Assembly (NCBI GenBank): GCA_039714795.1
Contig: JBDLIP010000002.1
Coordinates: 1 to 47,061 of the forward strand
Length of the DNA: 47,061 nucleotides
Source of the DNA: Pseudomonadota bacterium
GTDB lineage: Bacteria > Pseudomonadota > Alphaproteobacteria > JAGOMX01
Reading direction: 5' to 3'
Each line of letters begins with the position of its first letter. Within the stretch, counting starts at the first letter, position 1. Under the pieces are notes generated by a model, which searched no databases, was not told the origin of the DNA, and was given only the letters and a program-made list of their open reading frames with translations. This document shows positions 7,445-42,107 of this stretch, one piece after another. Both the position numbers and the translations under genes were made by a program.

Positions 7445-7692
7445 CAACACTCTTTCGTGTTTTGAAATTTGACTCAGTATAGCAACGTTTTTACTCGGTG
7501 CAAATGGGGAATTAAGAGATTCAGCCACTCCAGCTGTATGGTTGGAGCAATTCGCCACAGTTATACACTTCATGGACTCAATCAGACAAACATAAAATTA
7601 AGGTGTGACGAAGCACTAGTTACATTTCTCAAGAGTCGAGGATTTTATGGAATTTTGTCAGCAATGCCTTCCATCTTCTTTTCCAAACCTGC

Positions 7693-7923
7693 TATACTGA
7701 AGTGGAATTAAAACCTCTGTTTCCTGATACGCTCGAAGTGCTCATTTACCCAAGTAAACTGCGCGCTTCTCGCTATCATTAAACTAGAGGTTTTGAGTTC
7801 ACGATATACCCGTGCTGAATCAAAATGTTGAATTTTATGGCAGTGAAAAGCGCGCAGTTTACTTGGGTAAATGAGCACTTTGAGTGCACCAGAAAATCAA
7901 CAGTTTGATTCAGCTTCAGTATA
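7693..7923. repeat. composite of two head-to-head MITE/RPE-like palindromic elements (unit A 7693-7809, unit B 7806-7923)
   Basis: A perfect 30-nt inverted repeat joins the two cores: GTGCTCATTTACCCAAGTAAACTGCGCGCT at 7738-7767 and its reverse complement at 7849-7878. Unit B is nearly identical (reverse complement) to the copy at 27463-27581. The termini are TATAC...GTATA. Confidence 0.9.
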
Positions 7924-7963
7924 GTATAGAATTAAAATAATAAAAGCAAAATAGGGAGCAGAT

Positions 7964-11761: not shown

Positions 11762-11780
11762 AACACACTTTCTTAAGATT

Positions 11781-11873
11781 GCAGCTGAATCAAACTGTTG
11801 GTTTTCTGGTATACTCAAGGTGCTCATTTGTCTTCAAATATAAAATTGAACATTTTGATTCAGCACAAGTACA
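11781..11873 (-). repeat. MITE/RPE-like element, short copy with a deleted core
   Basis: GCAGCTGAATCAAACTGTTGGTTTTCTGGTATACTCAAGGTGCTCATTTG...AACATTTTGATTCAGCACAAGTACA matches both ends of the 27463-27581 copy. Confidence 0.85.
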
Positions 11874-11876
11874 GCT

Positions 11877-13379: not shown

Positions 13380-13443
13380 TTCCTTTTTTAGTTACGCAAA
13401 ATTTCCCCCATTGTTGCACGACTGCTAACTAATTCCAAGGAGT

Positions 13444-13573
13444 TATACCCGTGCCGAATCAAAATGTTGAATTTTATGGCAATTAAAAGCGTGCAATTTA
13501 CATGGGTAAATGAGCACTTCGAGTTCCCTATGATCGTGTCAGGAAACAGAGGTTTTGATTTCACTTCGATATA
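13444..13573 (+). repeat. MITE/RPE-like element, chimeric copy
   Basis: The left end TATACCCGTGCCGAATCAAAATGTTGAATTTTATGGC is type 1 (as in 7806-7923). The right end CAGGAAACAGAGGTTTTGATTTCACTTCGATATA is type 2 (as in 7693-7809). The core is GGGTAAATGAGCAC. Confidence 0.85.
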
Positions 13574-21448: not shown

Positions 21449-21451
21449 AAA

Positions 21452-22708
21452 ATGTTGCGTCCTAAATCAGGAATCATTCTCATTCTTCGTGAATACAATT
21501 GCACGATGCTACAATTTTCTCCCAATAATCCAGTTCACATTCGGCATGCAAATGAGCCTGAGTCTCTCTCAGATTATCTCAACCAACATCCCAATCTACC
21601 TCTCTATGTGCTGTTGGATCCTGTATATCAATCAATCGAACATTTTCCCTTGCCACCTCTAAAACCCTGGGATCGATACCTCTATTTACGTCAACTGCTT
21701 ACAAATCGTCAAACAGCAAACCAGTTGTGTGGCAATTTACCTGTTTGCAAACCCTACACAACAGCAGGATTCGTCACGTGTGAGAGGACTCAAGCGCTTA
21801 CAGCATGGCTAAAGTTGTTGGAAAAAACCTTGCACCCAATTATCGGTATCTCTTTCAAATGCATTGAAGCTCTCCATTGGCTCAAACGCGTTATACCCAC
21901 GTGGAATCAAAATTGGCATATCTTAATCTGTCCAGAGTATAGTCAGGGCCTTACACAACTTGCGTTTTATCAAGGGCAACTATGGGTAGTACGTCAAACA
22001 AGCAACCACGACGCCCAAGAAGAACTACAAGCGACACTCAACTATATTCGAAAACTCAAGCATACTTCAGCGCAACGAATCTCAGTCCACATCATGGACC
22101 AGGCAACGGCTGCTACTTCACTTTCTAAAATCTTAGGCCCACAAACAACGTGCGACTATATAGATTGCCCAAAATACCTTGAAAGCGATATAGGTAATTT
22201 ACCAGAGCAAAAATTCATACTAGATACAGCTATTAGCACCAGTCTGTGGCATGCTAGAGGTCCAAATACCCACGTAAAAGTTACTGAACTTGCAAGCAAA
22301 AAACGACTTTATACGCTACCACGATATATGCTGTCGATGGGATCCAGCCTGATGATATTATTTTTACTCGGCCTTGGTTGGATGCAACAAAGTCAAGAAA
22401 TAGTAACACCAACAGCTTCCTCACATGTATCAATTTCTGCTACCTGCAGGAAGTTTAATCTGAGTCAAATTACGCCTATGCGACAACTCAAGGCAATTGC
22501 ACCCGTTTTGAACTCCACGGGCTTGATAAAAATTCAGTGGGAAAATACCGCAGGTGGCAGCCACATTAAATTGCTGATGGATGTAAGCGATAAAAACACC
22601 CTGCGCAATTTGAAGAAAATCCAAAAACAGCTTGACCAAAAAGTACCAGAAGCGACGTTACAACTAAGACCAGTAAAAAATCTTAAGCTTATGGATACAC
22701 AAATCTGA
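21452..22708 (+). CDS. hypothetical bitopic protein, PilM-PilN fusion-like or GspL-like
   Basis: About 290 aa cytoplasmic region, one TM helix at about residues 293-311 (MLSMGSSLMILFLLGLGWM), and about 105 aa periplasmic. The cytoplasmic part shows actin-fold-like strand patterns (GIILILRE, LYVLLDP, IIGISFKCIEAL, WHILICPEYSQGLTQLAFYQGQLWVVRQ). Starts 3 nt after the platform gene stop. Confidence 0.6.
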   Translation: MLRPKSGIILILREYNCTMLQFSPNNPVHIRHANEPESLSDYLNQHPNLPLYVLLDPVYQSIEHFPLPPLKPWDRYLYLRQLLTNRQTANQLCGNLPVCKPYTTAGFVTCERTQALTAWLKLLEKTLHPIIGISFKCIEALHWLKRVIPTWNQNWHILICPEYSQGLTQLAFYQGQLWVVRQTSNHDAQEELQATLNYIRKLKHTSAQRISVHIMDQATAATSLSKILGPQTTCDYIDCPKYLESDIGNLPEQKFILDTAISTSLWHARGPNTHVKVTELASKKRLYTLPRYMLSMGSSLMILFLLGLGWMQQSQEIVTPTASSHVSISATCRKFNLSQITPMRQLKAIAPVLNSTGLIKIQWENTAGGSHIKLLMDVSDKNTLRNLKKIQKQLDQKVPEATLQLRPVKNLKLMDTQI

Positions 22709-23157
22709 TGTGGAGACAATATTGGTTAGCCTGCCTCATATGCTTTGGCGCCCTGCCCACAGCCGGTTACTACTTCTGCTTGATCGCATGGGGTAGTCAG
22801 CACAAAAAGGAAGTTCTAAACACATTGCCTGAGACTCCAAATTCCCAACTCATCGTTGAAACACTGAAATCAATGCTGAAAGATTTTGAACTCACAGAAA
22901 AATCTATCCATGTCGACACTATACCAAAATATCAATTGACAGTTTTTAAGATTGATATCTCTTTTACTGCAATCTATGACAATGATGTCTATAGATTTCT
23001 CCACCAACTTTTTGGGCGGTTTCCCGAAACAGTTACCGCTAAAACCCTCAAACTCAAACGCACTTCACTTGGAAAACAAATTGAAAAGGCACCATTGTCT
23101 GATCACGTTGCTGGTTATCTCCAGTTGTATTGGATACAGCCACCACTTGTTCAATGA
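22708..23157 (+). CDS. hypothetical bitopic protein, PilO/GspM-like by size and topology
   Basis: 149 aa with an N-terminal TM helix (YWLACLICFGALPTAGYYFCLIAW). The start overlaps the upstream stop as TGATG. Confidence 0.5.
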   Translation: MWRQYWLACLICFGALPTAGYYFCLIAWGSQHKKEVLNTLPETPNSQLIVETLKSMLKDFELTEKSIHVDTIPKYQLTVFKIDISFTAIYDNDVYRFLHQLFGRFPETVTAKTLKLKRTSLGKQIEKAPLSDHVAGYLQLYWIQPPLVQ

Positions 23158-23588
23158 AGTTTTCAATGAAGTTAACGCAGCAACTCGTTGTGCTTATCTT
23201 AGCCACTCTTTCCTCATTTCCCACTGAAGCAACTGTCTTCTTAGGAAAAGCCCTTGATTTTACTGATAAAGATGATTTTTCTCTCCTGTTTACCCCGGAA
23301 GAGCAATACCAAATCAAAAGTACAAACCGCAGGGCACACATTCGTGCAAAAACACCAATTCACCAAGCCAAACAGCTGCACCTCAATGCTGTTTTATATG
23401 TGGATGAAAACAACTGGACCATTTGGATCAATGGACATAAAATCACTCCCAATTCTCCAAATGTTCACCTGATCATTCACAAAGTATCATCCGAACACAT
23501 CCTGTGTACTTGGAAGCATACAACACAAAATTACGAGGTAGAGTTACGAACAAACCAAATGTTTAAGGTTAATGCAGTACATCAGTGA
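23154..23588 (+). CDS. secreted hypothetical protein, PilP/GspC-HR-like
   Basis: The start overlaps the upstream stop as ATGA. Signal peptide MKFSMKLTQQLVVLILATLSSFPTEA. The C-terminal beta-rich block LHLNAVLYVDENNWTIWINGHKITPNSPNVHLIIHKVSSEHILCTW resembles the secretin-contacting PilP/GspC HR fold pattern. Confidence 0.5.
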   Translation: MKFSMKLTQQLVVLILATLSSFPTEATVFLGKALDFTDKDDFSLLFTPEEQYQIKSTNRRAHIRAKTPIHQAKQLHLNAVLYVDENNWTIWINGHKITPNSPNVHLIIHKVSSEHILCTWKHTTQNYEVELRTNQMFKVNAVHQ

Positions 23589-27432: not shown

Positions 27433-27462
27433 GACACAACATTTCCTTGAAAAAACAATAGC

Positions 27463-27581
27463 TATACTGAAGCTGAATCAAACTGTTGGTTTTCTGGTGC
27501 ACTCAAAGTGCTCATTTACCCAAGTAAACTGCGCGCTTTTCACTGCCATAAAACTCAACATTTTGATTCAGCACGGGTATA
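27463..27581 (-). repeat. MITE/RPE-like element, full-length reference copy (119 bp)
   Basis: TATACTGAAGCTGAATCAAACTGTTG...GTGCTCATTTACCCAAGTAAACTGCGCGC...CAACATTTTGATTCAGCACGGGTATA. The terminal inverted repeats are about 25 nt, and the core contains the hairpin TTTAC-CCAA-GTAAA. Confidence 0.9.
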
Positions 27582-27643
27582 ACTAATACCTATTGAACAG
27601 ATAGCAACTAAGCAACAGGATTGCTACTTTCATTGTCCATTTG

Positions 27644-30850: not shown

Positions 30851-32161
30851 TTGCACATGGACATGTCCAGACAACAAATATCTATTTCATCATCGAGTGA
30901 GTTAACGGTTTCACAAATTTCACAACAGCTTAAACGTCTGGTAGACCAGAATTTTTCGCATGTGCGTATTCGCGGTGAAATTTCAGGACTCAAACAGCAT
31001 ACCTCTGGACATGTCTACTTTACTCTCAAGGACTCAGGTGCTGTTCTTGATGCTGTGTGTTGGCGTGGAACATATGCGAAATTGACAAATCATCCGCAGG
31101 ACGGCATGGAGGTGGTGTGTGTCGGACGTTTAACCACCTATGCTGGCCGCTCAAAATACCAAATCGTAGTTGAGGCCATGGAATTTGCTGGAGTGGGAGC
31201 ATTGCTCAAGCTTTTGGAAGAGCGAAAACAAAAACTCCACGCAGAGGGGCTTTTTGCCCAAGAACGCAAACGACCCATCCCATTTTTACCGCAAAGCATT
31301 GGAGTGATCACGTCTCCCACGGGTGCTGTTTTGCGAGATATTCGCCATCGTCTGGAAGACCGATTTCCCCGTCCAGTTTTGCTTTGGCCGGTATTGGTGC
31401 AAGGCAATGGGGCGGCAGAGCAAATTGCTCAAGCAATTCAAGGGTTTAATTATCTGTCAACGGACGGGCCCACTTCGCGGCCTGATGTTTTGATTTTAGC
31501 GCGTGGTGGCGGCAGTGTTGAGGACCTTTGGGCCTTTAATGAAGAAATTGTTGTGCGTGCGATTGCCGCTAGCGAAATTCCCGTCATTTCTGGAGTCGGA
31601 CACGAGACCGATACCACACTTGTTGATTATGTGGCAGATCGGCGTGCACCGACCCCTACAGCAGCTGCAGAAATGGCTGTGCCAGTTTATCAAGACCTTG
31701 TTTTGTCTTTAAGGCGATATACGCAAAGGCTTGAAACGGGGGTACGACGAACACTTGAGTATAACCTTCAGCGTGTGGACGACTGGGGTGGGCGCCTGAT
31801 TCAAGCATCTAGAAAACGTCTTGAATTTCAACGTATGACTTTGGTGCATTTACAATCTCGTTTGCGTCCTTCTCGTGATGTCTTGGCAACAAGAGAGATG
31901 CGGCTGAACACTTTGCTAGCACGCCTTAATGCCGCAGCTGGCATCACTTTACAACAGAAAAAAACAAGGCTTGAGACGTTGGGGTTGTTGCTAGAGAGCT
32001 ATTCATACACAGCGGTATTAAAACGCGGATTTGCTCTTGTAAAGGACGACAAAGGTCAGGTGGTAACGCGTGCTCAAAACCTAAAGTCGGAAATGCCTAT
32101 CCAGGTTACTTTTCATGATGGAGACGTGAAGGCGAGGGTTGAGTATACCCACGAGAAATGA
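30851..32161 (+). CDS. xseA: exodeoxyribonuclease VII large subunit
   Basis: 436 aa. OB-fold N-terminus LTVSQISQQLKRLVDQNFSHVRIRGEISGLKQHTSGHVYFTLKD and catalytic block ARGGGSVEDLWAFNEE. Confidence 0.94.
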   Translation: MHMDMSRQQISISSSSELTVSQISQQLKRLVDQNFSHVRIRGEISGLKQHTSGHVYFTLKDSGAVLDAVCWRGTYAKLTNHPQDGMEVVCVGRLTTYAGRSKYQIVVEAMEFAGVGALLKLLEERKQKLHAEGLFAQERKRPIPFLPQSIGVITSPTGAVLRDIRHRLEDRFPRPVLLWPVLVQGNGAAEQIAQAIQGFNYLSTDGPTSRPDVLILARGGGSVEDLWAFNEEIVVRAIAASEIPVISGVGHETDTTLVDYVADRRAPTPTAAAEMAVPVYQDLVLSLRRYTQRLETGVRRTLEYNLQRVDDWGGRLIQASRKRLEFQRMTLVHLQSRLRPSRDVLATREMRLNTLLARLNAAAGITLQQKKTRLETLGLLLESYSYTAVLKRGFALVKDDKGQVVTRAQNLKSEMPIQVTFHDGDVKARVEYTHEK

Positions 32162-32230
32162 AAACCCCTAGTCTAATGATGGCGAAAAGCGCACCGTTTG
32201 CACTGATAAATGAGCACAGTAGGTGATTCG
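32144..32230 (+). repeat. degenerate MITE/RPE-like element copy overlapping the xseA 3' end
   Basis: TATACCCACGAGAAATGAAAAC aligns with TATACCCGTGCTGAATCAAAATG. GCGAAAAGCGCACCGTTTGCACTGATAAATGAGCAC aligns with GTGAAAAGCGCGCAGTTTACTTGGGTAAATGAGCAC. I estimate roughly 70-75 percent identity by eye. Confidence 0.5.
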
Positions 32231-32335
32231 ATAATTACTCTTCACATTACAAAACGTTTTATGCTCTAATTGCTGTAGAATCCACATTTTAAAATTTGAT
32301 GGGTATGAAAACAACAAATAATACAGGTGACTATA

Positions 32336-33466
32336 ATGTCGACTCAAGCATGGGTCACTTTTGAACGAAAGAAAAATGTATTGGAAGTTCGAGCTGGAGG
32401 TGATTGGCACACCACTGGAGTCGAAGAGTCATATCGTAAACTTGAGCAACACCAGTTGCAAGGAGAGGCGACTTATATCATTGACCTGTCAGGCATTAAA
32501 TCCATTGATACAACGGGTAGCTGGATTCTTAAGGCTTTTATTCAAAGATTGGAGGCAAGTAACATTGCTGTCTCCTTAACTGGAGTCGGAGAAACAGTCC
32601 AAAGCATTTTGCAACAGCTCGACAAGCTTAAGTTTTCCATTCCCAAGCCTCCTTCCCAACCTAGCTTATACCTTAAATGGTTGATTGTTCTTGGTATTGC
32701 GGCAATTAAGGGGGGGATAAATGCCTTTAATATGCTCTCTTTTCTAGGACAGATTGTCATCACACTGGGGCGAACGATCTGTTCCCCACACCGGTTTCGC
32801 TTGATTTCATTTGTGGCAATGCTTGAGCAAGTTGGGTTGCGTGCTATGCCTATTGTAGGGCTCATCTCGTTCTTACTCGGCATCGTTATTATCTATCAAG
32901 GACAATATCAGCTGCGTCGTTTCGGAGCCGAGATTTTTGCAGTTGACCTCTTAGCCATCTCTATGCTGCGTGAGATTGGTATTTTAATTACCGCTATTGT
33001 TATCGCTGGTCGCTCTGGAAGTGCTTTTACAGCCCAGATCGGCACTATGAAGCTGAATCAAGAAATTGATGCTCTGCAAACATTTGGCGTCGATCCCATT
33101 GAAGCCCTTGTGGTTCCTCGATTGTTGGCCTTGATGATAGCTCTGCCGCTTCTAGCATTTTATGCAAACATAATGGGCTTGCTGGGTGGTGCTCTTATGG
33201 CCAACTTGGTTATTGAGATCTCTTATAGTCAGTTTTGGATTCAGCTCAAGCAAGCAATCAAATTGTGGACTTTTGGAGTTGGTATGATAAAAGCCCCCAT
33301 GTTCGCCTTTATCATTGCCATGGTTGGTTGTTTTGAAGGCATGCAAGTGGCAGGAGGGGCCAAAAGTATTGGAACGAAAACAACAAAATCGGTTGTTGAA
33401 GGTATATTTCTAGTCATCGTTTTTAATGCAGTATTCTCCATCATCTTTACCTTGCTGGGAATATGA
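32336..33466 (+). CDS. MlaE-family ABC permease with N-terminal STAS-like domain
   Basis: The N-terminal ~100 aa resemble an anti-sigma-antagonist/STAS fold (LEVRAGGDW...YIIDLSGIKSIDTTGSWIL). The C-terminal part is an MlaE-like permease with 5-6 TM helices. Start taken at ATG 32336; an alternative GTG lies at 32327. Confidence 0.85.
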   Translation: MSTQAWVTFERKKNVLEVRAGGDWHTTGVEESYRKLEQHQLQGEATYIIDLSGIKSIDTTGSWILKAFIQRLEASNIAVSLTGVGETVQSILQQLDKLKFSIPKPPSQPSLYLKWLIVLGIAAIKGGINAFNMLSFLGQIVITLGRTICSPHRFRLISFVAMLEQVGLRAMPIVGLISFLLGIVIIYQGQYQLRRFGAEIFAVDLLAISMLREIGILITAIVIAGRSGSAFTAQIGTMKLNQEIDALQTFGVDPIEALVVPRLLALMIALPLLAFYANIMGLLGGALMANLVIEISYSQFWIQLKQAIKLWTFGVGMIKAPMFAFIIAMVGCFEGMQVAGGAKSIGTKTTKSVVEGIFLVIVFNAVFSIIFTLLGI

Positions 33467-33469
33467 ATA

Positions 33470-34225
33470 GTGGCACGAGAAATCATTCTAAGCATTAAGA
33501 ATTTGGTTAATCGATTTGGTGCTCAAGTTGTTCACGACAATCTATGTCTTGATGTATACCGCGGGGAGATATTAGGCGTCGTTGGGGGATCTGGAACCGG
33601 AAAATCTGTTTTACTCAATACTATTCTTGGGCTACACCAGCCAAATCAGGGATCCATAACGATCTTTGATGTTGAGTGTTCGGGCCTTTACCGTCCACAG
33701 CGTATTGAATCAAGGTGGGGAGTGCTGTTTCAAAGTGGAGCTTTATTTAGTTCAATGACTGTCGGAGAAAATATTGCCGTTCCTATGCGGGAAATAGCAC
33801 ATATGTCGGAAGATTTGATTGAAGAAATGATTCCCGTCAAATTAACAATGGTTGGTCTTGATCCAGAAACGGCATTCAAATTGCCAGAAGAACTTTCTGG
33901 AGGCATGGTCAAACGTGCTGCTCTTGCGCGCGCTCTTGCCATTGATGCAGAATTATTGTTTCTCGATGAGCCCACTTCTGGGCTTGATCCAATTGGGGCA
34001 ACCGCTTTTGACAAATTAATTAAAGCATTGCAACAAACTCTTAACCTAACAGTTGTTATGATTACACACGATCTGGACTCACTGCATGCCATCTGTGATC
34101 GAATAGCTATCCTGGTTGACAAAAAAATTATTGTCGACTCAACGGCAAAGATACAGACCAATCCACACCCTTGGATTCAAGAGTACTTCATGGGAGAACG
34201 TGGTCAGATCGTCTTTGGGAGATAA
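33470..34225 (+). CDS. MlaF-like ABC transporter ATP-binding protein
   Basis: Walker A GGSGTGKS, signature LSGGMVKRAALARAL, Walker B LLFLDEPTSGLD. GTG start. Confidence 0.93.
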   Translation: MAREIILSIKNLVNRFGAQVVHDNLCLDVYRGEILGVVGGSGTGKSVLLNTILGLHQPNQGSITIFDVECSGLYRPQRIESRWGVLFQSGALFSSMTVGENIAVPMREIAHMSEDLIEEMIPVKLTMVGLDPETAFKLPEELSGGMVKRAALARALAIDAELLFLDEPTSGLDPIGATAFDKLIKALQQTLNLTVVMITHDLDSLHAICDRIAILVDKKIIVDSTAKIQTNPHPWIQEYFMGERGQIVFGR

Positions 34226-34231
34226 AATTAA

Positions 34232-35068
34232 GTGGAAACACGTGCAAACTACGCTCTTGTCGGATTTTTCGTTCTCACTTTGTTGATTGGAATTCTGGGC
34301 TTTACTGTCTGGATTTCACGAGTAGACTGGACGCAGGGAAGTATTTACGAAATTAACTTTGAAGGCTCCGTTGCCGGCCTTCGAGAAAATGAAACAGTGA
34401 CCTATAATGGGGTTCCCATTGGCAGTGTCATGAGCATTGCAGTCAATCCAGAAAAAGTGAACCTGATCCGAGTGCTGGTTGAAATTGACCGACCAAGTTT
34501 GATCCGGGAAAACTCATTTGCTACCCTGCAAGGACGAGGTATCACTGGCCAAATCCAAATCAAGATTGATGGCAGTACTCCAGATAGTCCGATTCTTTTA
34601 TCCTCTGAAAGTCAAAAGCCCCCTGAAATCCCCTCCCGAACCTCTGGGTTTCAACAAGTCATCGAAGAGGCTCCCCGAATCATGGAAAAACTTATCCGAC
34701 TAGTTAACGATGTCACTCCAGTCTTCAATGAGAAAAACCGAGAGGCATTTGCCAGCACACTTGAAAATTTTGCAACCTTTTCCGAGATTCTCGCCAAAGA
34801 ATCGCAAAACATGGCCGAACTCTTGACCCAAACAAAACAGTCCTTTAAACAGTTCGAAGAGGCAATGCAAGAAATGAAAAAGATGATTGCTGAAAATCGA
34901 CCTGCGATCAAGCAATTTACCGAGGGTGGTCTGAAGGAATTTTCAAGCTTCATGCAAGAGTGGCGGGTTGCGGCCAAAAACCTTAACCGCGTGGTTGAAA
35001 AATTTGAGCGTAATCCTCTGCAATTTATTGTACACAGCGACCTTGGTGGTCAGGAATTAAGTGAGTAA
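34232..35068 (+). CDS. MlaD/MCE-domain protein
   Basis: N-terminal anchor METRANYALVGFFVLTLLIGILGFTVWI, then an MCE domain (GLRENETVTYNGVPIGSV) and a helical C-terminus. GTG start. Confidence 0.88.
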   Translation: METRANYALVGFFVLTLLIGILGFTVWISRVDWTQGSIYEINFEGSVAGLRENETVTYNGVPIGSVMSIAVNPEKVNLIRVLVEIDRPSLIRENSFATLQGRGITGQIQIKIDGSTPDSPILLSSESQKPPEIPSRTSGFQQVIEEAPRIMEKLIRLVNDVTPVFNEKNREAFASTLENFATFSEILAKESQNMAELLTQTKQSFKQFEEAMQEMKKMIAENRPAIKQFTEGGLKEFSSFMQEWRVAAKNLNRVVEKFERNPLQFIVHSDLGGQELSE

Positions 35069-35071
35069 ATC

Positions 35072-35722
35072 GTGAGAAACAGAACCTTTGTTTATGCTCT
35101 ATACCTAATGATCTTATCCCTGCTCAGTGGTTGCGTTCAGGTATTGCCAGATCCTGCACCGCCCGCGCAAATCTATAATCTCTCGGTAGATGTTACAACA
35201 AATAAAAAGTGGCCCAATCGCAACTGGCAACTAAGCGTTGCCCAACCGTCGACAAGCCTTATGCTCGATTCCCAAAGGATTGCCATTCGCTTTCAAGAAA
35301 CGCCCGACTCACCAAAAACATGGGATTACGTAAAAGAAAGAAAATGGATTGAGCGGTTGCCTAGTATGCTGCAAGAGGATTTTATAGAGCAACTGACAAA
35401 CACCCAAAAACTAAAAGGAGTTGTCAAAGATACAGTCGCGCTAAATGCAGACTACCTATTGCTAGCAACGCTGTATGAATTTCACATTGATAATCCTTTT
35501 GCAAGCCCTGCCTTTGTCTCTTTGCGCCTTCTTATGCAACTGCGCGACAATGAAACTCAAAAAATTGTGGCTTCAAAAGTATTTTGGCAAAAGCAAACTG
35601 TTCTTGAAAAGAATTTCCCAGCTTTTAAAAAGGCTTTTGATCAAGCCTATAGTCTTCTCGTTCAAGATTTTCTTGACTGGATTTTGACAGTGAATTTAAA
35701 GAGCAAAGCGCAGACTGGATGA
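35072..35722 (+). CDS. ABC-type transport auxiliary lipoprotein (PqiC/DUF330-like)
   Basis: Lipobox LLSGC. 216 aa. Sits as the fourth gene of the MCE operon, as is typical in alphaproteobacteria. Contains the IYNL...LSV pattern. Confidence 0.7.
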   Translation: MRNRTFVYALYLMILSLLSGCVQVLPDPAPPAQIYNLSVDVTTNKKWPNRNWQLSVAQPSTSLMLDSQRIAIRFQETPDSPKTWDYVKERKWIERLPSMLQEDFIEQLTNTQKLKGVVKDTVALNADYLLLATLYEFHIDNPFASPAFVSLRLLMQLRDNETQKIVASKVFWQKQTVLEKNFPAFKKAFDQAYSLLVQDFLDWILTVNLKSKAQTG

Positions 35723-35879
35723 CGGCTGGTGCATATCACTCAGGTTTTCGAGAGTGCTAAAACCACGTTGATGATATTTCGCATTTAATATGTATTTATG
35801 TTAAAATCAACCTGCTAGTATGCTATGTGGGTTGATACAGTGGCGACAACCTACTTAAGTTCAACAAAAAGGATGTGTT

Positions 35880-36767
35880 TTGGAACCAACGCTTAAGAAC
35901 CTGAAACTTGTTTATGGCACTGGAGACGATGTTTCTTTTATCATCCGGTATTTCGAAGATTTTTACCGAGAAATCATCCGTTTCAAAAATGAAGCCTTGG
36001 GTGATCAACTACCTCCAAGTAACTTAGACCAAGAAGAGGAAGGAAAAAGTGCACCAGAGACGAATGAGCCAGTAAAACCTGAAATAAAAACCGATCAGAC
36101 TCCTGAATCTCCTATTCAACCCGCATCTCATGCTTCGCTTCCTGAAGAAATCCTTTTGAGTCTGAAAAATCTGCTAAAACGACAAGCTATTGATGCAGCG
36201 CGCTTTGGTGGCGAATTTGCAGCAAAATATTACCACGAAGCCGAGTTTATCATGGTCGCACTTGCTGATGAGGTTTTTTTGCATACCGATTGGAAAGGAA
36301 AGGGGTATTGGCAAAAAAATATCCTTGAATCTCAAATATATGACACACACAGCGCTGGCGAAACATTTTTTGATAAGCTTGAAGATTTTTTAAAAGTACG
36401 TGACCCAAGTCGCGCTGATATTGCTATGGTCTATCTGCTGGCTTTGGGGCTTGGATTTAAAGGAAAATACCGTGATAATGACGCCAAAAACCGGTTGGCT
36501 CATTATCGTCGTGAACTCTTTATCTTTATCTACCATCGTGATCCCACATTGTTTCAGCTGGCAACCCAACTCATTCCCAAATCATACCAACACACCGTTG
36601 AAACCGGTAAAGTTCTATACCTTTATGATTTTAAACCTCTCATGAAACTGTTTACTGGAATCGTCTTCTTGGTATTTTTGATTTCGTACGGTGTTTGGTA
36701 TAGCACAACCCACGAAGTCAGTGTTTTGGTTGATCAAATCCTCAGCTCTGGACCCTCAACGATATGA
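35880..36767 (+). CDS. tssL: type VI secretion TssL / DotU(IcmH)-family protein
   Basis: DotU pattern EAEFIMVALADEVFL...DIAMVYLLALGLGFKGKY. Single C-terminal TM helix (LFTGIVFLVFLISYGVWY). TTG start 7 nt after AAGGA. The stop overlaps the tssM start as ATGA. Confidence 0.85.
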   Translation: MEPTLKNLKLVYGTGDDVSFIIRYFEDFYREIIRFKNEALGDQLPPSNLDQEEEGKSAPETNEPVKPEIKTDQTPESPIQPASHASLPEEILLSLKNLLKRQAIDAARFGGEFAAKYYHEAEFIMVALADEVFLHTDWKGKGYWQKNILESQIYDTHSAGETFFDKLEDFLKVRDPSRADIAMVYLLALGLGFKGKYRDNDAKNRLAHYRRELFIFIYHRDPTLFQLATQLIPKSYQHTVETGKVLYLYDFKPLMKLFTGIVFLVFLISYGVWYSTTHEVSVLVDQILSSGPSTI

Positions 36768-39700
36768 AATTTTTTGAACAATATTACGTCTACCTACCAT
36801 ACATTATCCTAGCCATTCTCTTGCTGTCTGGGGGGTTACTTCTCCGGGCTATGTATTCTTATTCTTCGGCTATCTACCGATTGCGTACCTTGGGAAGAGC
36901 AATGGGGGGACCATTTAGTTTCTTTCAACGTGCACGCGCTGTTGAAAGTGTCGCCTCCAGTTTTAAGACTCCATTTTTTAGAAGAGTCTATAACCGATTT
37001 TTGAGTTTCTTATTGTTTCTTGGAATCACAAGTGATAACGACCCCTTGTCTCTTTCTTTTTCACAAGCAATAAAGATTCTCAAGCAACAGATGGGCAAAC
37101 GCAACTACCAGTACAAATTGCCTTGGTTTTTAATGCTGGGTGCAGCGGAATCAGGCAAATCCACTATCTTGGAAAGTGCTGAATTGGACCTTCCCGTTGG
37201 TAGCCCCCGTTTTGCAACAAAGGATAAGCAACCAACTTGTAAATGGTGGTTTTTTGATCGAGGTATCGTCCTTGATCTAGTCGGAAATTACTTTTTGGAA
37301 AAAGGGGCTTTGCAAAATGATAAAAGTGGGTGGTCAAGGCTTGTCAGTCTGTTGCTATACCACCGGCCTCGCAGACCCATTGATGGCATTATTTTAACGA
37401 TCCCTAGCACCGAATTACTTGGTTCAACGAAACTCCCGCACGACGAAGTGATTGCTCGTGCGAAACACATCCATACCAAACTTTGGCACATTCAAAAATC
37501 ACTTGGCATGAAAATACCAGTGTACGTGCTTGTAACCAAAACAGATCTGGTTCCTGGTTTTAAAGGATTCACAGAAGAACTCCCCCGGGAAAGCTTATAT
37601 CAAATGCTGGGCTGGTCGAGCCCTTATTCGCTTGAAAGCGGCTATGAACCATCCTGGGTCGATCAAGTTTTTGACACAGTTCGCAAATCTCTGCATGCAG
37701 CGCGCGCTGAAATCTTTGCCGCAGGCCGCGTTAAAAACAATCGAGACGATACACTTATTTTCAAAGTAGAACTTTTGAAACTAAAGGAAAATCTTTCAAC
37801 CTTTTTGAATCAAATCTTCCAAGAAAGCGCATACCACGAATCTTTTTTCTTGCGAGGAATTTATTTTTGTGGTGACACCCGCTCGCATACAGCTGTAGGA
37901 GATTACAAGCGCGAAGAACGTTCTTGGACCACACCTGAGGCCATGGGTGCTGCTGCGCCCACACCCTTCAAACAACACGACAAATTTCATGTTTCCTTTT
38001 TAAGAGATCTGCTTGAAAAGAAAGTCTTCCTCGAATACGCTTTAGCGCGCCCAATCAAACGTGTCTTTAAATCTGCAAGTCGCCTGCTAAATCTGACAAA
38101 GGTTTTCATGGTGATTTTCTTGCTTGTCTGGGGTATTGGTTTATATCGGGCAAACAACCGACTGTCGGAAGGTAAAAGCGACTTGTTACCCCTCGTTAAC
38201 GAAGTCGCCCAAACATTACACCACATGCGTCAACGTGATTTTGATGTCAATGCGGTTCACGATGCCAAATACCTCAATGACCAAACGTTGGTCATCCTCA
38301 ATCAGATGACTGGCCTTGAAGTCGAAAATTCTTTTTCGCTGGCAATACCAACCTCCTGGTTTACAAGCTATGATGAAAGACTGAAAGCGGCATTTACAAC
38401 CACTTGGGATTCAGTAGTCTTTGTTTCACTTTACACAGGGTTAACTCAAAAAGCGCGTTCACTGTTTGTTAATCTTGTACCAGAAATTGGTGCAGTTCAA
38501 CCAAACTACTTTTTGCCCCCATTGAAAACGCCAGAATTTTTGGATTTGCTCGATTTTGTCAAGCAAACCGGACAATGGGAGTACAACGTCCTACGGTTTA
38601 ATAACCTTGAAAGCAGTCTTGATATTGAGGACATCGGCCGTCTGGTTCGTTATTTATTTAACCAAGATTTACCAGCGCAGTTTTACACAAAGGCATCTTA
38701 TTACCAGTCAGCTCTGGCCACCACTCAAGATCGTAACATTTCACTAAAAGATTACAATACATCGGCTCACAGAAAGCTTCGATTACTTTACAGTCAATTT
38801 ATTGAACGCGTGTTTGATCCCGCACGTAATTTTGGAGGCTTTACCAAACTCAGCAAAATGCTTGAAAAGCTTGAGCATAGCACAGCTCAATCGCGAATCA
38901 ATGAAGCTGAGCTTCGAAATACAGTGCAATTTCTAGCAAAGATTACCGGTTTCATTGGCGGTGAGCATTTTCAGTGGATTAAGGGCTATGAATTTGATCC
39001 AGGTCCCCTCTACAGTGATGTCCTTAATCGAATTGCCCAATCACGAATGCTGGGAACAGAGCTAGCCAATGAATTCCTGCAAGAAACACAAAAAGAATTC
39101 TCGCTTTACAAAAATGTTCTGGCAAGTCTAACTGCTCCCCTCATTGGTCCCGTCTTTACAGTTGAAAACAATAAAGTTCTTCCGAAACCATCGCCTACTT
39201 TTGATAGCCTTGTGGAACATTTTACCGCTTTTATGAAAGAACCATTTATGGCACCAATGGCGGCCCAAAGAGAGGTTACCATTGTTCCACCTGGACGCAT
39301 GCTGTTTTGGGATACTCCAACACTTAAGGGTGCTGCAAAACTGGTCACTCAATTTGAGTCCTTCCTGGCAGATACGGCTCCAAAACTTTCCCAAGATGTC
39401 CGGCATATCATGGAGTATATTGGCCGCCGCAGTGTCTTGACCCGGCTATTGGATGCAATAGCGCGCGCTGAACGATTCAAGCCTATTCCACAAAGCCTTA
39501 CTGGTTTTGACGAGCAGGAAGCACTGAGACTACAAATTCACAATCTTAAAACGGTCCATCCTCTCTTTGCGCAAATCTTGGGGGGGTACGTCATTCATGA
39601 CGTGAGCTCGCAAGCCGCTTCCTTGCGTGAATTACTCATTGAAGAAACGTACAAGATGCTTGAGGGTGTGGACCGATTGCTCATTCGTGATGATCTTTAT

Positions 39701-40987
39701 GGCATCAGCAATGCAACTTTTGAGTCGTGGAGGGGTGAAAGAATGCTTGGGCTCCAGGCATTTGGTGTTCATGATTTGGAAGATATGAAAAGCTATCTAA
39801 ACGCTCAAAGAGAACGCATCTTCTTTCTCTCCAAAGAGCTGGCAGCTCCTGTACTTTCCTTCTTGGGCCTTCCCTTTCTAAATGGCGTTCCGCGTAATAT
39901 GCCCCTTGTCAGTAAATGGACTCGTATTGTCTTACAACTGGATGCCTATGAGAAAAAAACACCTAACAACTCTTTGAGTATCCTTGAACATTTCCTATTA
40001 TACGATATCAATCAGTTTAGTCTCGATTCCTGTTTTGCGGCCATCCGTGACACAGATGCATTCGCCAAGACAGGTGATTTTTTCATAAGGCGCCGCAATG
40101 AAATCAAGGCTTCTTTATTAAAACGATGCAAGTCAGTTGCTGAAAAGCAAGGTTCAACGAGTTATCAAAAGCTAGCAAGTTTCTTTAATCAAAAGCTCGC
40201 TGGCCGGTTTCCTTTTACAGAAAAAGCAGGAGATACAGAAGAAAAAGAAGCCTCAGAAGAGGATGTCAAGGTGTTCCTGACGATGTTTGAATCTATCAAT
40301 CCTGTTGAGAAAGAAGCAATTAGCGAAAGATATCAGAGCAAGGGTAAAACCGATTCACCAGTTCAGTTTTTACGGCAGATTAGAATTGTGTCGCCCTACC
40401 TGAGGGCTGCCCTCAGCAAGGATGCTGAAAATCATGTGTCAGCATTGCTGTTTGATGTCGACTTTAGATCGGATCGCTCTCGGGAAACTGGCGGCAATAA
40501 GATCATCGACTGGTTTGTCCTGGTGAATGGACAAAAGGTGAGTTTGTTTGGCAAAAAGCATACAGGGTCGTGGGATCTCGGTGATAAAGTGCAAATATCC
40601 CTGAACTGGGCCGGGGATAGCAATACCATTCCCACCGCTGATTCGACTCAGAAAAATCTCAACGTTAAGGGTCACCAAGCAACTTTCTCTTATTCCGGAA
40701 ATTGGAGCCTGCTGCATTTGCTCAGGAATCACATCACTGATTCTTCCAGACATGCAGGTCCCTCTCCGCTCGCTCTTGAGTTCAGTGTGCCCACAATTCC
40801 TGAAAAAGTAACGGGTGATAAAAGTCCGCAACCAGACTCAATGGCCAAGGTTTTCTTGAGCTTTGCCATTTTTGCCCCGCCTGCACCGACTGATGCGCAA
40901 AAAGAGGGAGGAGAATCTGAAAAGCAAACGTTGGCTTATCCGATTTTTCCGCATAAAGCACCCGTTGTAGAGGCGGCAAAGGGCTAA
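36764..40987 (+). CDS. tssM: type VI secretion TssM / IcmF-family protein (1407 aa)
   Basis: N-terminal TM hairpin, Walker A LGAAESGKSTIL, Walker B-like IDGIILTIP, third TM helix at about residue 450 (VFMVIFLLVWGIGLY), and a periplasmic region of about 950 aa ending in an IcmF_C-like block. Confidence 0.9.
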   Translation: MKFFEQYYVYLPYIILAILLLSGGLLLRAMYSYSSAIYRLRTLGRAMGGPFSFFQRARAVESVASSFKTPFFRRVYNRFLSFLLFLGITSDNDPLSLSFSQAIKILKQQMGKRNYQYKLPWFLMLGAAESGKSTILESAELDLPVGSPRFATKDKQPTCKWWFFDRGIVLDLVGNYFLEKGALQNDKSGWSRLVSLLLYHRPRRPIDGIILTIPSTELLGSTKLPHDEVIARAKHIHTKLWHIQKSLGMKIPVYVLVTKTDLVPGFKGFTEELPRESLYQMLGWSSPYSLESGYEPSWVDQVFDTVRKSLHAARAEIFAAGRVKNNRDDTLIFKVELLKLKENLSTFLNQIFQESAYHESFFLRGIYFCGDTRSHTAVGDYKREERSWTTPEAMGAAAPTPFKQHDKFHVSFLRDLLEKKVFLEYALARPIKRVFKSASRLLNLTKVFMVIFLLVWGIGLYRANNRLSEGKSDLLPLVNEVAQTLHHMRQRDFDVNAVHDAKYLNDQTLVILNQMTGLEVENSFSLAIPTSWFTSYDERLKAAFTTTWDSVVFVSLYTGLTQKARSLFVNLVPEIGAVQPNYFLPPLKTPEFLDLLDFVKQTGQWEYNVLRFNNLESSLDIEDIGRLVRYLFNQDLPAQFYTKASYYQSALATTQDRNISLKDYNTSAHRKLRLLYSQFIERVFDPARNFGGFTKLSKMLEKLEHSTAQSRINEAELRNTVQFLAKITGFIGGEHFQWIKGYEFDPGPLYSDVLNRIAQSRMLGTELANEFLQETQKEFSLYKNVLASLTAPLIGPVFTVENNKVLPKPSPTFDSLVEHFTAFMKEPFMAPMAAQREVTIVPPGRMLFWDTPTLKGAAKLVTQFESFLADTAPKLSQDVRHIMEYIGRRSVLTRLLDAIARAERFKPIPQSLTGFDEQEALRLQIHNLKTVHPLFAQILGGYVIHDVSSQAASLRELLIEETYKMLEGVDRLLIRDDLYGISNATFESWRGERMLGLQAFGVHDLEDMKSYLNAQRERIFFLSKELAAPVLSFLGLPFLNGVPRNMPLVSKWTRIVLQLDAYEKKTPNNSLSILEHFLLYDINQFSLDSCFAAIRDTDAFAKTGDFFIRRRNEIKASLLKRCKSVAEKQGSTSYQKLASFFNQKLAGRFPFTEKAGDTEEKEASEEDVKVFLTMFESINPVEKEAISERYQSKGKTDSPVQFLRQIRIVSPYLRAALSKDAENHVSALLFDVDFRSDRSRETGGNKIIDWFVLVNGQKVSLFGKKHTGSWDLGDKVQISLNWAGDSNTIPTADSTQKNLNVKGHQATFSYSGNWSLLHLLRNHITDSSRHAGPSPLALEFSVPTIPEKVTGDKSPQPDSMAKVFLSFAIFAPPAPTDAQKEGGESEKQTLAYPIFPHKAPVVEAAKG

Positions 40988-40991
40988 AATT

Positions 40992-42107
40992 ATGGCTCGC
41001 CAGAAAACTAAATCCGCCACTTCACCTCAATATCAAGAAATAACTCAGCTGATCTGTCCGATTCCTGGTGGCAACCTAGTAGGTCCTTACATCCGCTACG
41101 GGTCTCTTTTCGATAGCATTGTCACGGCACGCACCCAAGAAGATGCAACCCTACCTCAAGGAATTTGGAAGAGAGAAATCAAACAAGCCAATTGGCCTGA
41201 AGTTGTAACTTTGTGCAAAGATTTCCTTGAGCATCATTCAAAAGACTTGCAAATAGCTGCTTGGCTTATGCAGGCTTGGTACCATACAAAAGCTCTCGAA
41301 GGTCTCACTCAAGGATTGAGCCTCTTCAACCAACTATGTACAAACTATTGGCAGCAGATCCATCCCCACAGGATGGATGCAGAAGAAAACCTGGAGGAAC
41401 GTTGTAATCTGATCTATTGGCTTAATGAAAAGCTCCCCCCTGACCTACACCAACTGCAAATGACAAAGCCTGCAAACCCTAAGGTAGCCATTTTCACTTT
41501 TGCTGACACTCTTCGCTTTGCAAGCTCTCCTAAACCAGCAATGAATAAAGCAATCGCAACGGCATTTCAACAAAGCCAAGCTGAAACTCCTGCGAGTTTT
41601 TATAATACAATCATTTCGGACACGACCACTGCCTTAGATGAGCTCAAAAATCTCGAACACACTTTAGATACCCATATCGGCGGTAATCTTTTTTCCCTCA
41701 GTCAGCTACGCCAAACACTGGAAGCTATTCAACACTTTGCAAAAGAGCAATGCAAAAAGTACGCAGAGGCAAAAAAGATGGCAAAGCAGGTCGCAAAGAA
41801 GCAACCGCCAACTCCTTTGAAACAAAAAACAATTACCAAACCAGCCGCAAAAGCTCCTGAAAAAGCGGATCCCGCTCTTGCAAAAAACAGCAGCAATGAT
41901 TGCCAGCAGATCTATAGGCAGCTTGAAGAGATCATAACAAATCTAAAGCAAATCCACCCACAAAGTCCAGCTGCCTACCTGATACAAAAAGCAATCACCT
42001 TGGATCAAAAATCTCTACAAGAATGGCTAGAAGATATCAACCAACATAACCTTGATATCCAATCTGTCCAAAAATGGCTTGGCATTTTGCCCCAAGAGAG
42101 AAAGTAG
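40992..42107 (+). CDS. tssA: TssA-family protein (ImpA_N domain)
   Basis: ImpA_N pattern PIPGGNLVGPYIRYGSLFDSIVTAR...LPQGIWKREIKQANWPEVVTLCKDFLEHHSKDLQIAAWLMQAW...GLTQGLSLFNQLCTNYWQQIHP. Conserved C-terminal helix SPAAYLIQKAITLDQKSLQEWL. Confidence 0.85.
   Translation: MARQKTKSATSPQYQEITQLICPIPGGNLVGPYIRYGSLFDSIVTARTQEDATLPQGIWKREIKQANWPEVVTLCKDFLEHHSKDLQIAAWLMQAWYHTKALEGLTQGLSLFNQLCTNYWQQIHPHRMDAEENLEERCNLIYWLNEKLPPDLHQLQMTKPANPKVAIFTFADTLRFASSPKPAMNKAIATAFQQSQAETPASFYNTIISDTTTALDELKNLEHTLDTHIGGNLFSLSQLRQTLEAIQHFAKEQCKKYAEAKKMAKQVAKKQPPTPLKQKTITKPAAKAPEKADPALAKNSSNDCQQIYRQLEEIITNLKQIHPQSPAAYLIQKAITLDQKSLQEWLEDINQHNLDIQSVQKWLGILPQERK

What the first reader, a model, noticed from the sequence alone, without database searches (positions are those of the whole stretch)
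35880..42107. Isolated TssL-TssM-TssA module with no other type VI secretion genes nearby
Three translationally coupled genes encode a DotU/TssL protein, a 1407-aa IcmF/TssM with an intact Walker A, and an ImpA_N TssA-family protein. The tssL stop and tssM start overlap as ATGA, and tssA starts 4 nt after tssM ends. All three ORFs look intact. Within at least 6 kb upstream and 5 kb downstream there is no TssB/C sheath, Hcp, VgrG, TssE/F/G/K baseplate, ClpV or TssJ lipoprotein. The flanks are an MCE lipid-transport operon and a DD-carboxypeptidase. Canonical T6SS loci keep the 13 core genes together. IcmF/DotU pairs without sheath genes are otherwise known as accessory parts of Dot/Icm type IVB systems, but those lack a TssA. 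A membrane-complex-plus-cap module in a putatively reduced alphaproteobacterial genome could be a split T6SS, a degenerating one, or a repurposed envelope complex.
Basis: partly seen in the sequence, partly recalled or inferred. Interest (0 to 1): 0.8.

Follow-up and report, generated by a model that had tools for sequence, protein, structure and literature searches.

The report
One piece of a scattered T6SS
The lone tssL-tssM-tssA trio is real and intact, but it is one fragment of a type VI secretion system whose genes are scattered around the chromosome, an arrangement already described for Holosporales-type protist symbionts, so it is largely ordinary.

Summary
Window 35880-42107 encodes three intact, translationally coupled genes: tssL, a 1407-aa tssM with an intact Walker A, and tssA. 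No other T6SS gene lies anywhere on the 47-kb contig.

"Isolated" applies to the locus only. The sequencing run that holds the window's exact TssM (SRR27843388) also holds a tssF-tssG contig and a contig with a SPOR protein, a TssJ-like lipoprotein and tssK. The TssF and TssK proteins carry nearby NCBI accessions from one "Pseudomonadota bacterium" MAG. An 84%-identical sister organism shows the same three separate pieces with matching divergence.

All pieces are under strong purifying selection (dN/dS 0.06-0.12, like neighbouring housekeeping genes). The same TssM family sits in complete K-L-M-A-B-C-Hcp-E-F-G-ClpV clusters in Nitrospinota, Acidobacteriota and Desulfobacterota. In Caedibacter, Paracaedibacteraceae and Holosporales-like genomes it sits in detached J-K-L-M-A blocks.

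Midha et al. [quoted passage not shown] The only local twist is that the tssK block has separated from tssL.

I could not check for sheath, tube or spike genes in this genome.

Residual interest: the roughly 950-aa TssM periplasmic domain matches no Pfam model and no solved TssM structure.

The parts
35778..35807 (+). Promoter-like site (TTCGCA-18-TAAAAT with an extended TG) in the 157-nt gap between the MCE operon and tssL
   Evidence: Consensus scan; the number of such sites in the region is no higher than in shuffles, so this is weak. The intergenic stretch 35775-35880 is conserved at about 77% nt identity with the sister contig L004.
35880..36767 (+). tssL (DotU family, short form, no peptidoglycan-binding domain). 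It has a C-terminal TM anchor at residues 254-272 and a Pro/Glu-rich insert at about 40-90.
   Evidence: Pfam DotU 93.3 bits, TIGR03349 84 bits. TM prediction. 82% identical to the sister organism, dN/dS 0.058.
36764..40987 (+). tssM, 1407 aa. TM helix at 9-27, cytoplasmic P-loop NTPase domain (Walker A at 126-134), TM helix at 441-459, and a ~950-aa periplasmic domain (460-1407) that is mostly helical with a C-terminal beta-sandwich.
   Evidence: Pfam IcmF-related_N 187 bits, TIGR03348 229 bits on the N-terminal part only. Topology. AF2 models with pLDDT 83. hhalign match of the C-terminus to a canonical TssM. dN/dS 0.068. The family sits inside full T6SS clusters elsewhere.
40992..42107 (+). 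tssA (ImpA_N plus C-terminal domain), the cap/priming protein
   Evidence: Pfam ImpA_N 108.7 bits. TIGR03363 209.9 bits over its full length, above the 160.85 cutoff. dN/dS 0.115.

Best explanation
The three genes are the membrane-complex and cap sub-operon of a functional type VI secretion system. The system's core genes are dispersed over several chromosomal loci, as is typical of Holosporales-type (Caedibacter/Paracaedibacter-like) alphaproteobacteria.

Inferred mechanism, from canonical T6SS biology:
- TssL and TssM, together with a TssJ-like outer-membrane lipoprotein encoded elsewhere next to tssK, build the envelope-spanning membrane complex.
- TssM's Walker A NTPase domain faces the cytoplasm.
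- TssA docks on the complex, recruits the TssK-TssF-TssG(-TssE-VgrG) baseplate, and primes Hcp-tube and TssBC-sheath polymerisation.
- Sheath contraction fires effectors into a host (probably protist) or competitor cell.

Shown here: the three genes are intact, translationally coupled and under purifying selection. The genes for baseplate subunits TssF, TssG and TssK and for the TssJ-like lipoprotein exist on other contigs of the same organism. The same TssM family is embedded in complete T6SS clusters in other phyla.

Inferred, not shown: sheath, tube, spike and TssE genes in this particular genome, and actual firing. In this lineage the tssJ-like/tssK block, which adjoins tssL in most relatives, has moved away and left L-M-A behind an MCE operon.
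For: 1. Same organism, other loci. The window's exact TssM is on a contig of run SRR27843388. That run also has tssF-tssG next to a UDP-glucose dehydrogenase gene (L008), and SPOR-protein / lipoprotein / tssK (L090).
2. TssF is MEN8236285.1 and TssK is MEN8236383.1. Both are labelled "MAG: Pseudomonadota bacterium" and the accessions are 98 apart. The window's TssM has the same source pattern, NCBI + Logan.
3. The sister organism (TssM 84% identical, run SRR31655999) has the same three separate pieces. Divergence is congruent across them: TssF 86%, TssK 82%, TssL 82%.
4. Tetranucleotide profiles put these contigs among the 8 closest of 93 loci to the window.
5. dN/dS is 0.058 / 0.068 / 0.115 for tssL/M/A and 0.069-0.084 for tssK/F/G. 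The housekeeping genes dacA and UDPG-DH give 0.07.
6. A relative with 62% TssM identity carries tssF-tssG, three unrelated genes, then SPOR / tssJ-like / tssK / tssL / tssM on one contig.
7. Across the 80 loci from the GTDB species-representative scan plus the relatives looked up individually, this TssM family lies in K-L-M-A-B-C-Hcp-E-F-G-ClpV clusters outside the Alphaproteobacteria. In Caedibacter acanthamoebae, Caedibacter spp., Paracaedibacteraceae, Finniella and Holosporales MAGs it lies in detached (SPOR)-(J-like)-K-L-M-A blocks. L-M-A alone recurs in at least L006, L010, L047, L058 and L071.
8. Literature. [quoted passage not shown] PMC11909080 states the T6SS is conserved in almost all Holosporineae genomes.
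Against: - tssB, tssC, hcp, vgrG, tssE and clpV were not observed for this genome.
- Linking the contigs to one genome rests on shared run, neighbouring accessions, congruent divergence and composition, not on a closed assembly.
- The window's placement among Holosporales-like bacteria rests on a TssM neighbour-joining tree and on synteny style, not on rRNA or marker genes. NuoL/M are only ~56% identical to a Paracaedibacteraceae MAG.
- The TssM periplasmic domain matches no Pfam model and no solved TssM structure. Equivalence to the canonical membrane complex there rests on a marginal hhalign match (Prob 51%, E 1.6e-4) plus genomic context.
- dS is near saturation (1.0-1.8), so dN/dS values are approximate.
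Confidence: 0.85

Rival explanations
1. Decaying remnant: the T6SS is being lost, and tssL-tssM-tssA are leftover genes no longer tied to a working machine.
For: No other T6SS gene lies on the 47-kb contig. The tssK block that adjoins tssL in most relatives is missing here. Holospora spp. have lost the T6SS altogether.
Against: All three ORFs are full length with the Walker A and family-invariant residues kept. dN/dS of 0.06-0.12 equals that of housekeeping neighbours over a divergence with dS above 1. tssF, tssG, tssK and the tssJ-like gene are intact and equally constrained in the same run and in the sister organism.
Confidence: 0.05
2. Repurposed autonomous envelope module: TssL-TssM-TssA act without a contractile sheath, for example as an envelope-spanning scaffold linked to the neighbouring MCE lipid-transport or peptidoglycan genes.
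For: L-M-A without tssK recurs in several lineages (window/L004, L006/L010, L047, L058/L071). The TssM periplasmic domain is atypical and unmatched in the PDB. The immediate neighbours are envelope genes.
Against: Neighbours differ between L-M-A loci, with no conserved link to MCE or dacA outside the window/L004 pair. Baseplate genes are retained under selection in the same organism. The same TssM family is embedded in complete sheath-containing clusters. TssA's known role is sheath priming.
Confidence: 0.05
3. IcmF/IcmH (DotU) accessory pair of a Dot/Icm type IVB secretion system encoded elsewhere.
For: DotU and IcmF families are shared between T6SS and T4BSS. Weak NCBIfam hits exist to IcmH_DotU_IVB (29.7 bits) and IcmF_IVB (37.8 bits).
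Against: Both hits are far below their cutoffs (50 and 1000), while the T6SS models score much higher. A bona fide TssA follows in the operon (TIGR03363 above cutoff). Homologues sit in T6SS clusters, never next to Dot/Icm genes, in the 90+ loci examined.
Confidence: 0.01

Closest known systems
Dispersed T6SS of Holosporales families (Bodocaedibacteraceae, Paracaedibacteraceae, Caedimonadaceae), described by Midha et al. 2021, ISME J, PMC8163844
   Same: The TssM clade is the same: Caedibacter acanthamoebae, Caedibacter spp., Paracaedibacteraceae and Holosporales MAGs appear. The gene order tssL-tssM-tssA is the same. tssF-tssG form a separate pair, a TssJ-like lipoprotein is present, and the flanks are housekeeping genes.
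   Different: The published block is [tssK-tssL-tssM-tssA]. Here tssK, with the SPOR protein and the TssJ-like lipoprotein, is on another contig, and tssL follows an MCE operon. The organism is an unclassified MAG only 35-47% identical in TssM to named Holosporales.
Canonical single-locus T6SSi, e.g. the Pseudoalteromonas plasmid cluster tagH-tssJ-K-L-M-tagF-...-tssA-B-C-E-F-G (L092), and the structurally solved enteroaggregative E. coli (EAEC) TssJLM complex (recalled from the literature, not retrieved here)
   Same: TssL has a DotU fold plus a TM anchor. TssM has the same topology (TM hairpin, Walker A NTPase, third TM, large periplasmic domain). TssA has ImpA_N. The local order J-K-L-M...A is conserved in relatives. 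C-terminal TssM motifs (LAGRFPF / GxWSLLRLL) align with the canonical C-terminus.
   Different: The genes are scattered. The TssM periplasmic domain is ~200 aa longer. It is not recognised by any Pfam periplasmic-domain model, by the C-terminal two-thirds of TIGR03348, or by Foldseek against the PDB. A conserved SPOR-domain membrane protein precedes the lipoprotein. TssL lacks a peptidoglycan-binding domain.
IcmF/IcmH(DotU) of Dot/Icm T4BSS
   Same: Shared DotU and IcmF N-terminal domain families.
   Different: Scores fall far below the T4BSS-specific NCBIfam cutoffs, a TssA is present, and the family context is T6SS.

Membership tests
T6SS membrane complex / core (TssL, TssM, TssA) | TssL: DotU domain with a C-terminal transmembrane anchor | tested here: met
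   Pfam DotU 93.3 bits (cutoff 27). TM at residues 254-272. TIGR03349 scores 84.1 bits, just under its 89.95 cutoff.
T6SS membrane complex / core (TssL, TssM, TssA) | TssM: N-terminal TM segment(s), cytoplasmic Walker A NTPase (IcmF-related_N), a further TM, and a large periplasmic domain | tested here: met
   PF14331 186.9 bits. Walker A GAAESGKST at 126-134, invariant in the family. TM helices at 9-27 and 441-459. 948-aa periplasmic part.
T6SS membrane complex / core (TssL, TssM, TssA) | TssM periplasmic / C-terminal domain homologous to canonical TssM (the part that contacts TssJ) | tested here: inconclusive
   No Pfam hit. TIGR03348 aligns only positions 84-497 of 1168 and scores 229 bits, below its 388 cutoff. 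No PDB sequence hit with the family profile. Foldseek with two confident AF2 models returns no TssM. hhalign against an annotated TssM gives a collinear C-terminal match: Prob 51%, E 1.6e-4, shared GRFPF / WSLxRLL motifs.
T6SS membrane complex / core (TssL, TssM, TssA) | TssA: ImpA_N domain plus TssA C-terminal domain | tested here: met
   PF06812 108.7 bits. TIGR03363 209.9 bits over positions 2-353 of 353, cutoff 160.85.
T6SS membrane complex / core (TssL, TssM, TssA) | The family co-occurs with sheath, tube and baseplate genes | tested here: met
   Not in the window. The same TssM family is inside K-L-M-A-B-C-Hcp-E-F-G-ClpV clusters in about 20 loci from other phyla.
T6SS membrane complex / core (TssL, TssM, TssA) | Remaining core genes present in the same genome | tested here: inconclusive
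   TssF, TssG, TssK and a TssJ-like lipoprotein were found in the same run and under neighbouring MAG accessions. TssB, TssC, Hcp, VgrG, TssE and ClpV could not be searched in this genome.
Holosporales-type dispersed T6SS (PMC8163844) | [quoted passage not shown] | tested here: inconclusive
   An isolated [tssF-tssG] pair and the L-M-A order are met. tssK adjacency to tssL is not met here: tssK is on another contig. The [tssB-tssC-hcp] and [ywqK-vgrG] blocks were not testable.
Holosporales-type dispersed T6SS (PMC8163844) | The organism belongs to Holosporales / Holosporineae | not testable with these tools
   There are no rRNA or marker-gene searches left. In a neighbour-joining tree the TssM nests among Caedibacter, Holosporales UBA9215 and unclassified alphaproteobacterial MAGs. 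NCBI labels the MAG only as "Pseudomonadota bacterium".
Dot/Icm T4BSS IcmF/IcmH | Match to the T4BSS-specific IcmF and IcmH/DotU models | tested here: not met
   NF038226 IcmF_IVB 37.8 bits against a cutoff of 1000. NF038228 IcmH_DotU_IVB 29.7 bits against a cutoff of 50.

The most novel reading that the evidence does not exclude
The T6SS clade to which this trio belongs spans Holosporales-like alphaproteobacteria, Nitrospinota, Acidobacteriota, Desulfobacterota and Gemmatimonadota. It may build an architecturally non-canonical membrane complex, made of three parts. One is a TssM with a ~950-aa periplasmic domain of a fold not represented among solved TssM structures. Another is a highly divergent TssJ-like lipoprotein. 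The third is a dedicated SPOR-domain inner-membrane protein that would supply peptidoglycan anchoring in place of a TssL/TagL peptidoglycan-binding domain. In that case the L-M-A trio can be moved away from the J/K block because it is a self-contained assembly unit.
Probability: 0.3. Interest if true: 0.45.

Novelty: new member of a known kind. Interest (0 to 1): 0.25.

Why it matters
**For annotation.** An apparently orphan TssL-TssM-TssA module should not be read as a novel secretion or envelope system, or as T6SS decay, in Holosporales-like genomes. In these genomes the T6SS is routinely split into small blocks, and locus-based detectors that require co-localised core genes may miss or fragment it.

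**Modest added value.**
- The tssK block can detach from tssL, and has done so at least twice: in the window/L004 lineage and in L006/L010.
- The symbiont T6SS is tied to a TssM clade that also occurs in free-living Nitrospinota, Acidobacteriota and Desulfobacterota as compact clusters.
- That clade's TssM periplasmic domain, and the conserved SPOR protein, are structurally uncharacterised.

Tried and rejected
1. A PDB sequence search with a 30-member TssM family profile found no TssM chain at E<=1, only P-loop noise.
2. Foldseek against the PDB returned only generic helical-repeat and C2-like beta-sandwich hits and no TssM. I tried AF2 models of both the whole periplasmic domain (948 aa, pLDDT 83) and the C-terminal 308 aa (pLDDT 83.6, pTM 0.80). 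Fold-level membership therefore stays open.
I rebuilt it with 18 permitted rows.
4. Pfam found nothing for the small lipoprotein upstream of tssK at E<=1. hhalign against an annotated TssJ gave only a weak collinear match (Prob 22%, E 1e-3). I call it "TssJ-like" from its lipobox, size, position and motif pattern, in agreement with PMC8163844.
5. Direct detection of tssB/C/hcp/vgrG in the window's genome was not possible.
6. Looking 3.8 kb further upstream of tssF in the 62% relative found only housekeeping genes.
7. Rfam at gathering threshold found only one tRNA in the window, so the dispersed repeat matches no known RNA family.
8. The promoter and terminator scans were not enriched over shuffles, so I make no strong claim on transcription units.
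9. A literature search for the run and assembly accessions showed only that the 62% relative comes from a deep-sea sediment metagenome (SDBT00000000).


Full report
**1. Observation**

The window carries three same-strand ORFs: 35880-36767 (295 aa), 36764-40987 (1407 aa) and 40992-42107 (371 aa). The tssL stop and tssM start overlap as ATGA. tssA starts 4 nt after the tssM stop.

Family models identify them as follows:
- TssL: DotU, Pfam 93 bits.
- TssM: IcmF-related_N, 187 bits. TIGR03348 gives 229 bits but aligns only model positions 84-497.
- TssA: ImpA_N, 109 bits. TIGR03363 gives 209.9 bits over its full length, above its 160.85 cutoff.

TssM has TM helices at 9-27 and 441-459. It has an intact Walker A (GAAESGKST, 126-134) whose G, G and K are invariant across 30 family members. 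Its periplasmic part is 948 aa long. TssL has a C-terminal TM anchor at 254-272.

The flanks are a STAS-MlaE / MlaF / MlaD / lipoprotein operon upstream, and a DD-carboxypeptidase with a SPOR domain plus CreD downstream. The rest of the contig is housekeeping. It includes nuoJ-N, hda, ndk, holC, pepA, an EipB-like gene, a GGDEF regulator, GspE/GspF-like genes, folC, accD, uppP, xseA, pssA and psd.

I searched all six-frame ORFs of the window with TssK, B, C, Hcp, E, F, G, ClpV and two conserved accessory proteins taken from relatives. Only the three genes were hit. The window is a whole 47,061-nt contig.

**2. What the TssM family is**

A homologue search returned more than 200 proteins of about 1350-1480 aa, all with only the N-terminal Pfam domain. 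They come from alphaproteobacterial MAGs, Beggiatoa/Thiotrichaceae, Desulfonema, and Acidobacteriota (Blastocatellia, Thermoanaerobaculia).

In Desulfonema ishimotonii the gene sits in a complete cluster: two small genes, then tssK-L-M-A-B-C-hcp-x-x-tssE-F-G-clpV.

I scanned GTDB species representatives with a family alignment, which gave 80 loci with 10-kb flanks. I annotated them with HMMs built from these clusters. Three patterns emerged:
- Nitrospinota, Nitrospirales, Acidobacteriota, Desulfobacterota, Gemmatimonadota and one alphaproteobacterial MAG have the compact cluster.
- Candidatus Caedibacter acanthamoebae (complete genome CP008936.1), Caedibacter spp., Paracaedibacteraceae, Finniella, Holosporales UBA9215 and many unclassified alphaproteobacterial MAGs have only (SPOR protein)-(small lipoprotein)-tssK-tssL-tssM-tssA, amid housekeeping genes. 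These include 1.1-Mb and 1.46-Mb chromosomes.
- L-M-A without tssK, with enough upstream sequence to be sure, occurs in the window, L006, L010, L047, L058 and L071.

A neighbour-joining tree places window+L004 next to L001 (which has tssK), then L006+L010 (which lack it), inside the Caedibacter/Holosporales-like radiation. The 62% relative L005 has tssK adjacent to tssL. The tssK block therefore detached at least twice.

**3. Is the rest of the machine in this organism?**

The window's exact TssM also lies on a 14-kb contig of run SRR27843388 with identical synteny.

I used TssF from the 62% relative as a query. The best foreign hit, P0123 (66% identical), lies on a contig of the same run. That contig carries tssF-tssG followed by UDP-glucose dehydrogenase, the same neighbours as in the relative.

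I then used the relative's TssK as a query. The hit P0243 (68% identical) lies on another contig of SRR27843388, which carries SPOR protein / 163-aa lipoprotein / tssK.

Both proteins also exist at NCBI, as MEN8236285.1 and MEN8236383.1. Both are labelled "MAG... [Pseudomonadota bacterium]" and the accessions are 98 apart. The window's TssM likewise has sources NCBI + Logan.

The sister organism (TssM 84% identical, run SRR31655999) has the same three separate pieces:
- L-M-A-dacA.
- tssF-tssG between an ABC transporter and UDPG-DH.
- SPOR / lipoprotein / tssK.

Identities between the two organisms are congruent: TssM 84%, TssL 82%, TssF 86%, TssG 81%, TssK 82%, DacA 80%, UDPG-DH 83%. By tetranucleotide composition, the lineage's contigs are the 8 closest of 93 loci to the window.

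So at least eight T6SS-associated genes exist in this organism on at least three loci. They are tssJ-like, tssK, tssL, tssM, tssA, tssF, tssG and the SPOR accessory gene. I could not search this genome for tssB/C, hcp, vgrG, tssE or clpV.

**4. Selection**

Nei-Gojobori dN/dS between the two organisms:

| Gene | dN/dS |
|---|---|
| tssL | 0.058 |
| tssM | 0.068 |
| tssA | 0.115 |
| tssK | 0.069 |
| tssF | 0.079 |
| tssG | 0.084 |
| dacA (housekeeping) | 0.071 |
| UDPG-DH (housekeeping) | 0.069 |

dS is near saturation (1.0-1.8), so the ratios are approximate. Strong constraint is nevertheless clear, and this excludes a decaying remnant.

**5. Literature**

Midha et al. 2021 (PMC8163844) report for Ca. 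Bodocaedibacter vickermanii the genes tssL, tssM, tssA, tssE, tssF, tssG, tssK, vgrG, tssB and tssC, plus a tssJ-like gene and an Hcp-like gene, all transcribed. [quoted passage not shown] The finding is therefore a further example of a described arrangement. Its local variation is that tssK, with the tssJ-like and SPOR genes, is no longer next to tssL.

**6. Mechanism**

This is inferred from canonical T6SS knowledge. TssL, TssM and the TssJ-like lipoprotein form the membrane complex. TssA docks on it, recruits the TssK/F/G/E-VgrG baseplate, and coordinates tube and sheath polymerisation. Contraction then delivers effectors. The tight coupling of L, M and A fits co-ordinated production of interacting partners.

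The 157-nt region upstream of tssL is conserved with the sister organism at about 77% nt identity. It contains one promoter-like site (weak evidence). This suggests the trio has its own promoter rather than depending on the MCE operon.

**7. What remains unusual**

The 948-aa periplasmic domain of this TssM family hits no Pfam model and no PDB sequence with a family profile. Foldseek with confident AF2 models retrieves no solved TssM (pLDDT 83 for residues 460-1407; pLDDT 83.6 and pTM 0.80 for residues 1100-1407).

A profile comparison with an annotated canonical TssM from a Pseudoalteromonas plasmid cluster gives a collinear match. Periplasmic-domain residues 679-887 align to residues 950-1137 of the 1169-aa canonical protein (Prob 51%, E 1.6e-4). 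The shared motifs are LAGRFPF / IVGRYPF and GxWSLLRLL / GEWSLYRML. The C-terminal domain is thus probably homologous but very divergent.

The lipoprotein upstream of tssK has a lipobox (LALAGC) and a TssJ-like motif pattern, but only a weak hhalign match to an annotated TssJ. A SPOR-domain membrane protein is conserved in front of it.

Whether this clade's membrane complex is architecturally non-canonical is open. This is the only part with some novelty potential.

**8. Verdict**

Novelty: a new member of a known kind, with a minor rearrangement. Interest is low to moderate.

Noticed in passing
window 7691-7796, 7805-7924, 11780-11880, 13441-13573, 27461-27584, weaker 32144-32224; also L005:8850-8974, the end of L090 (2905-2933) and the end of L091: A dispersed, intergenic, palindromic repeat of ~105-125 nt with at least 6 copies in 47 kb. 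Two copies are 98% identical. It folds into one long hairpin (-49.6 kcal/mol, z = -7.75) and matches no Rfam family. A copy sits immediately downstream of tssK in this organism, in its sister and in the 62% relative. It is 91% nt identical across species whose proteins are only ~62-68% identical. The short-read contigs end inside it. It is MITE/REP-like and may have mediated the tssK/tssL separation.
   Followed up: partly
L090:385-1035 and 1019-1510; L005:6281-7457; the equivalent genes upstream of tssK in most loci L001-L089: Two conserved accessory genes precede tssK throughout this T6SS clade. One is a membrane protein with a C-terminal SPOR (peptidoglycan-binding) domain. The other is a 160-190-aa lipoprotein that no Pfam model recognises but that looks TssJ-like.
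   Followed up: partly
window 36764-40987 (TssM residues 460-1407): The periplasmic domain is ~200 aa longer than in canonical TssM. It has no Pfam, PDB-sequence or Foldseek match to solved TssM structures despite confident AF2 models.
   Followed up: yes
window 18535-23588: A GspE/PilB-type ATPase (with an MshEN domain) and a GspF-type platform protein are followed by three ORFs (418, 149 and 152 aa) with no Pfam match. This may be a compact T2SS/type IV pilus-like module. A response-regulator/PAS/GGDEF protein lies just upstream on the opposite strand (16938-18359).
   Followed up: no
window 32327-35722: The Mla/MCE-type operon has a STAS (MlaB-like) domain fused to the N-terminus of the MlaE permease. 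It is followed by MlaF, a 278-aa MlaD-family protein and an ABC_trans_aux lipoprotein, and ends 157 nt before tssL.
   Followed up: no
window 35880-36767 (TssL residues ~40-90): A Pro/Glu/Gln-rich low-complexity insert makes this TssL 295 aa long, against 260-268 aa in more distant relatives. The 84% sister has it as well (297 aa).
   Followed up: no
L018 (JBPBPI010000194.1), L021, L038, L016: Contigs carrying this Holosporales-type TssM block are binned in MAGs labelled Janthinobacterium lividum, Thiotrichales, Verrucomicrobiales and Puniceispirillum. Their TssM sequences nest among Caedibacter/Holosporales-like sequences, which suggests mis-binning or mislabelling of symbiont contigs.
   Followed up: no
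window 6551-7573: The NuoJ-like ORF (Oxidored_q3) is 340 aa as called and matches the Pfam model in two stretches. It looks longer than I would expect for NuoJ (expectation from memory, not checked here). This may be an over-extended start or a real extension.
   Followed up: no
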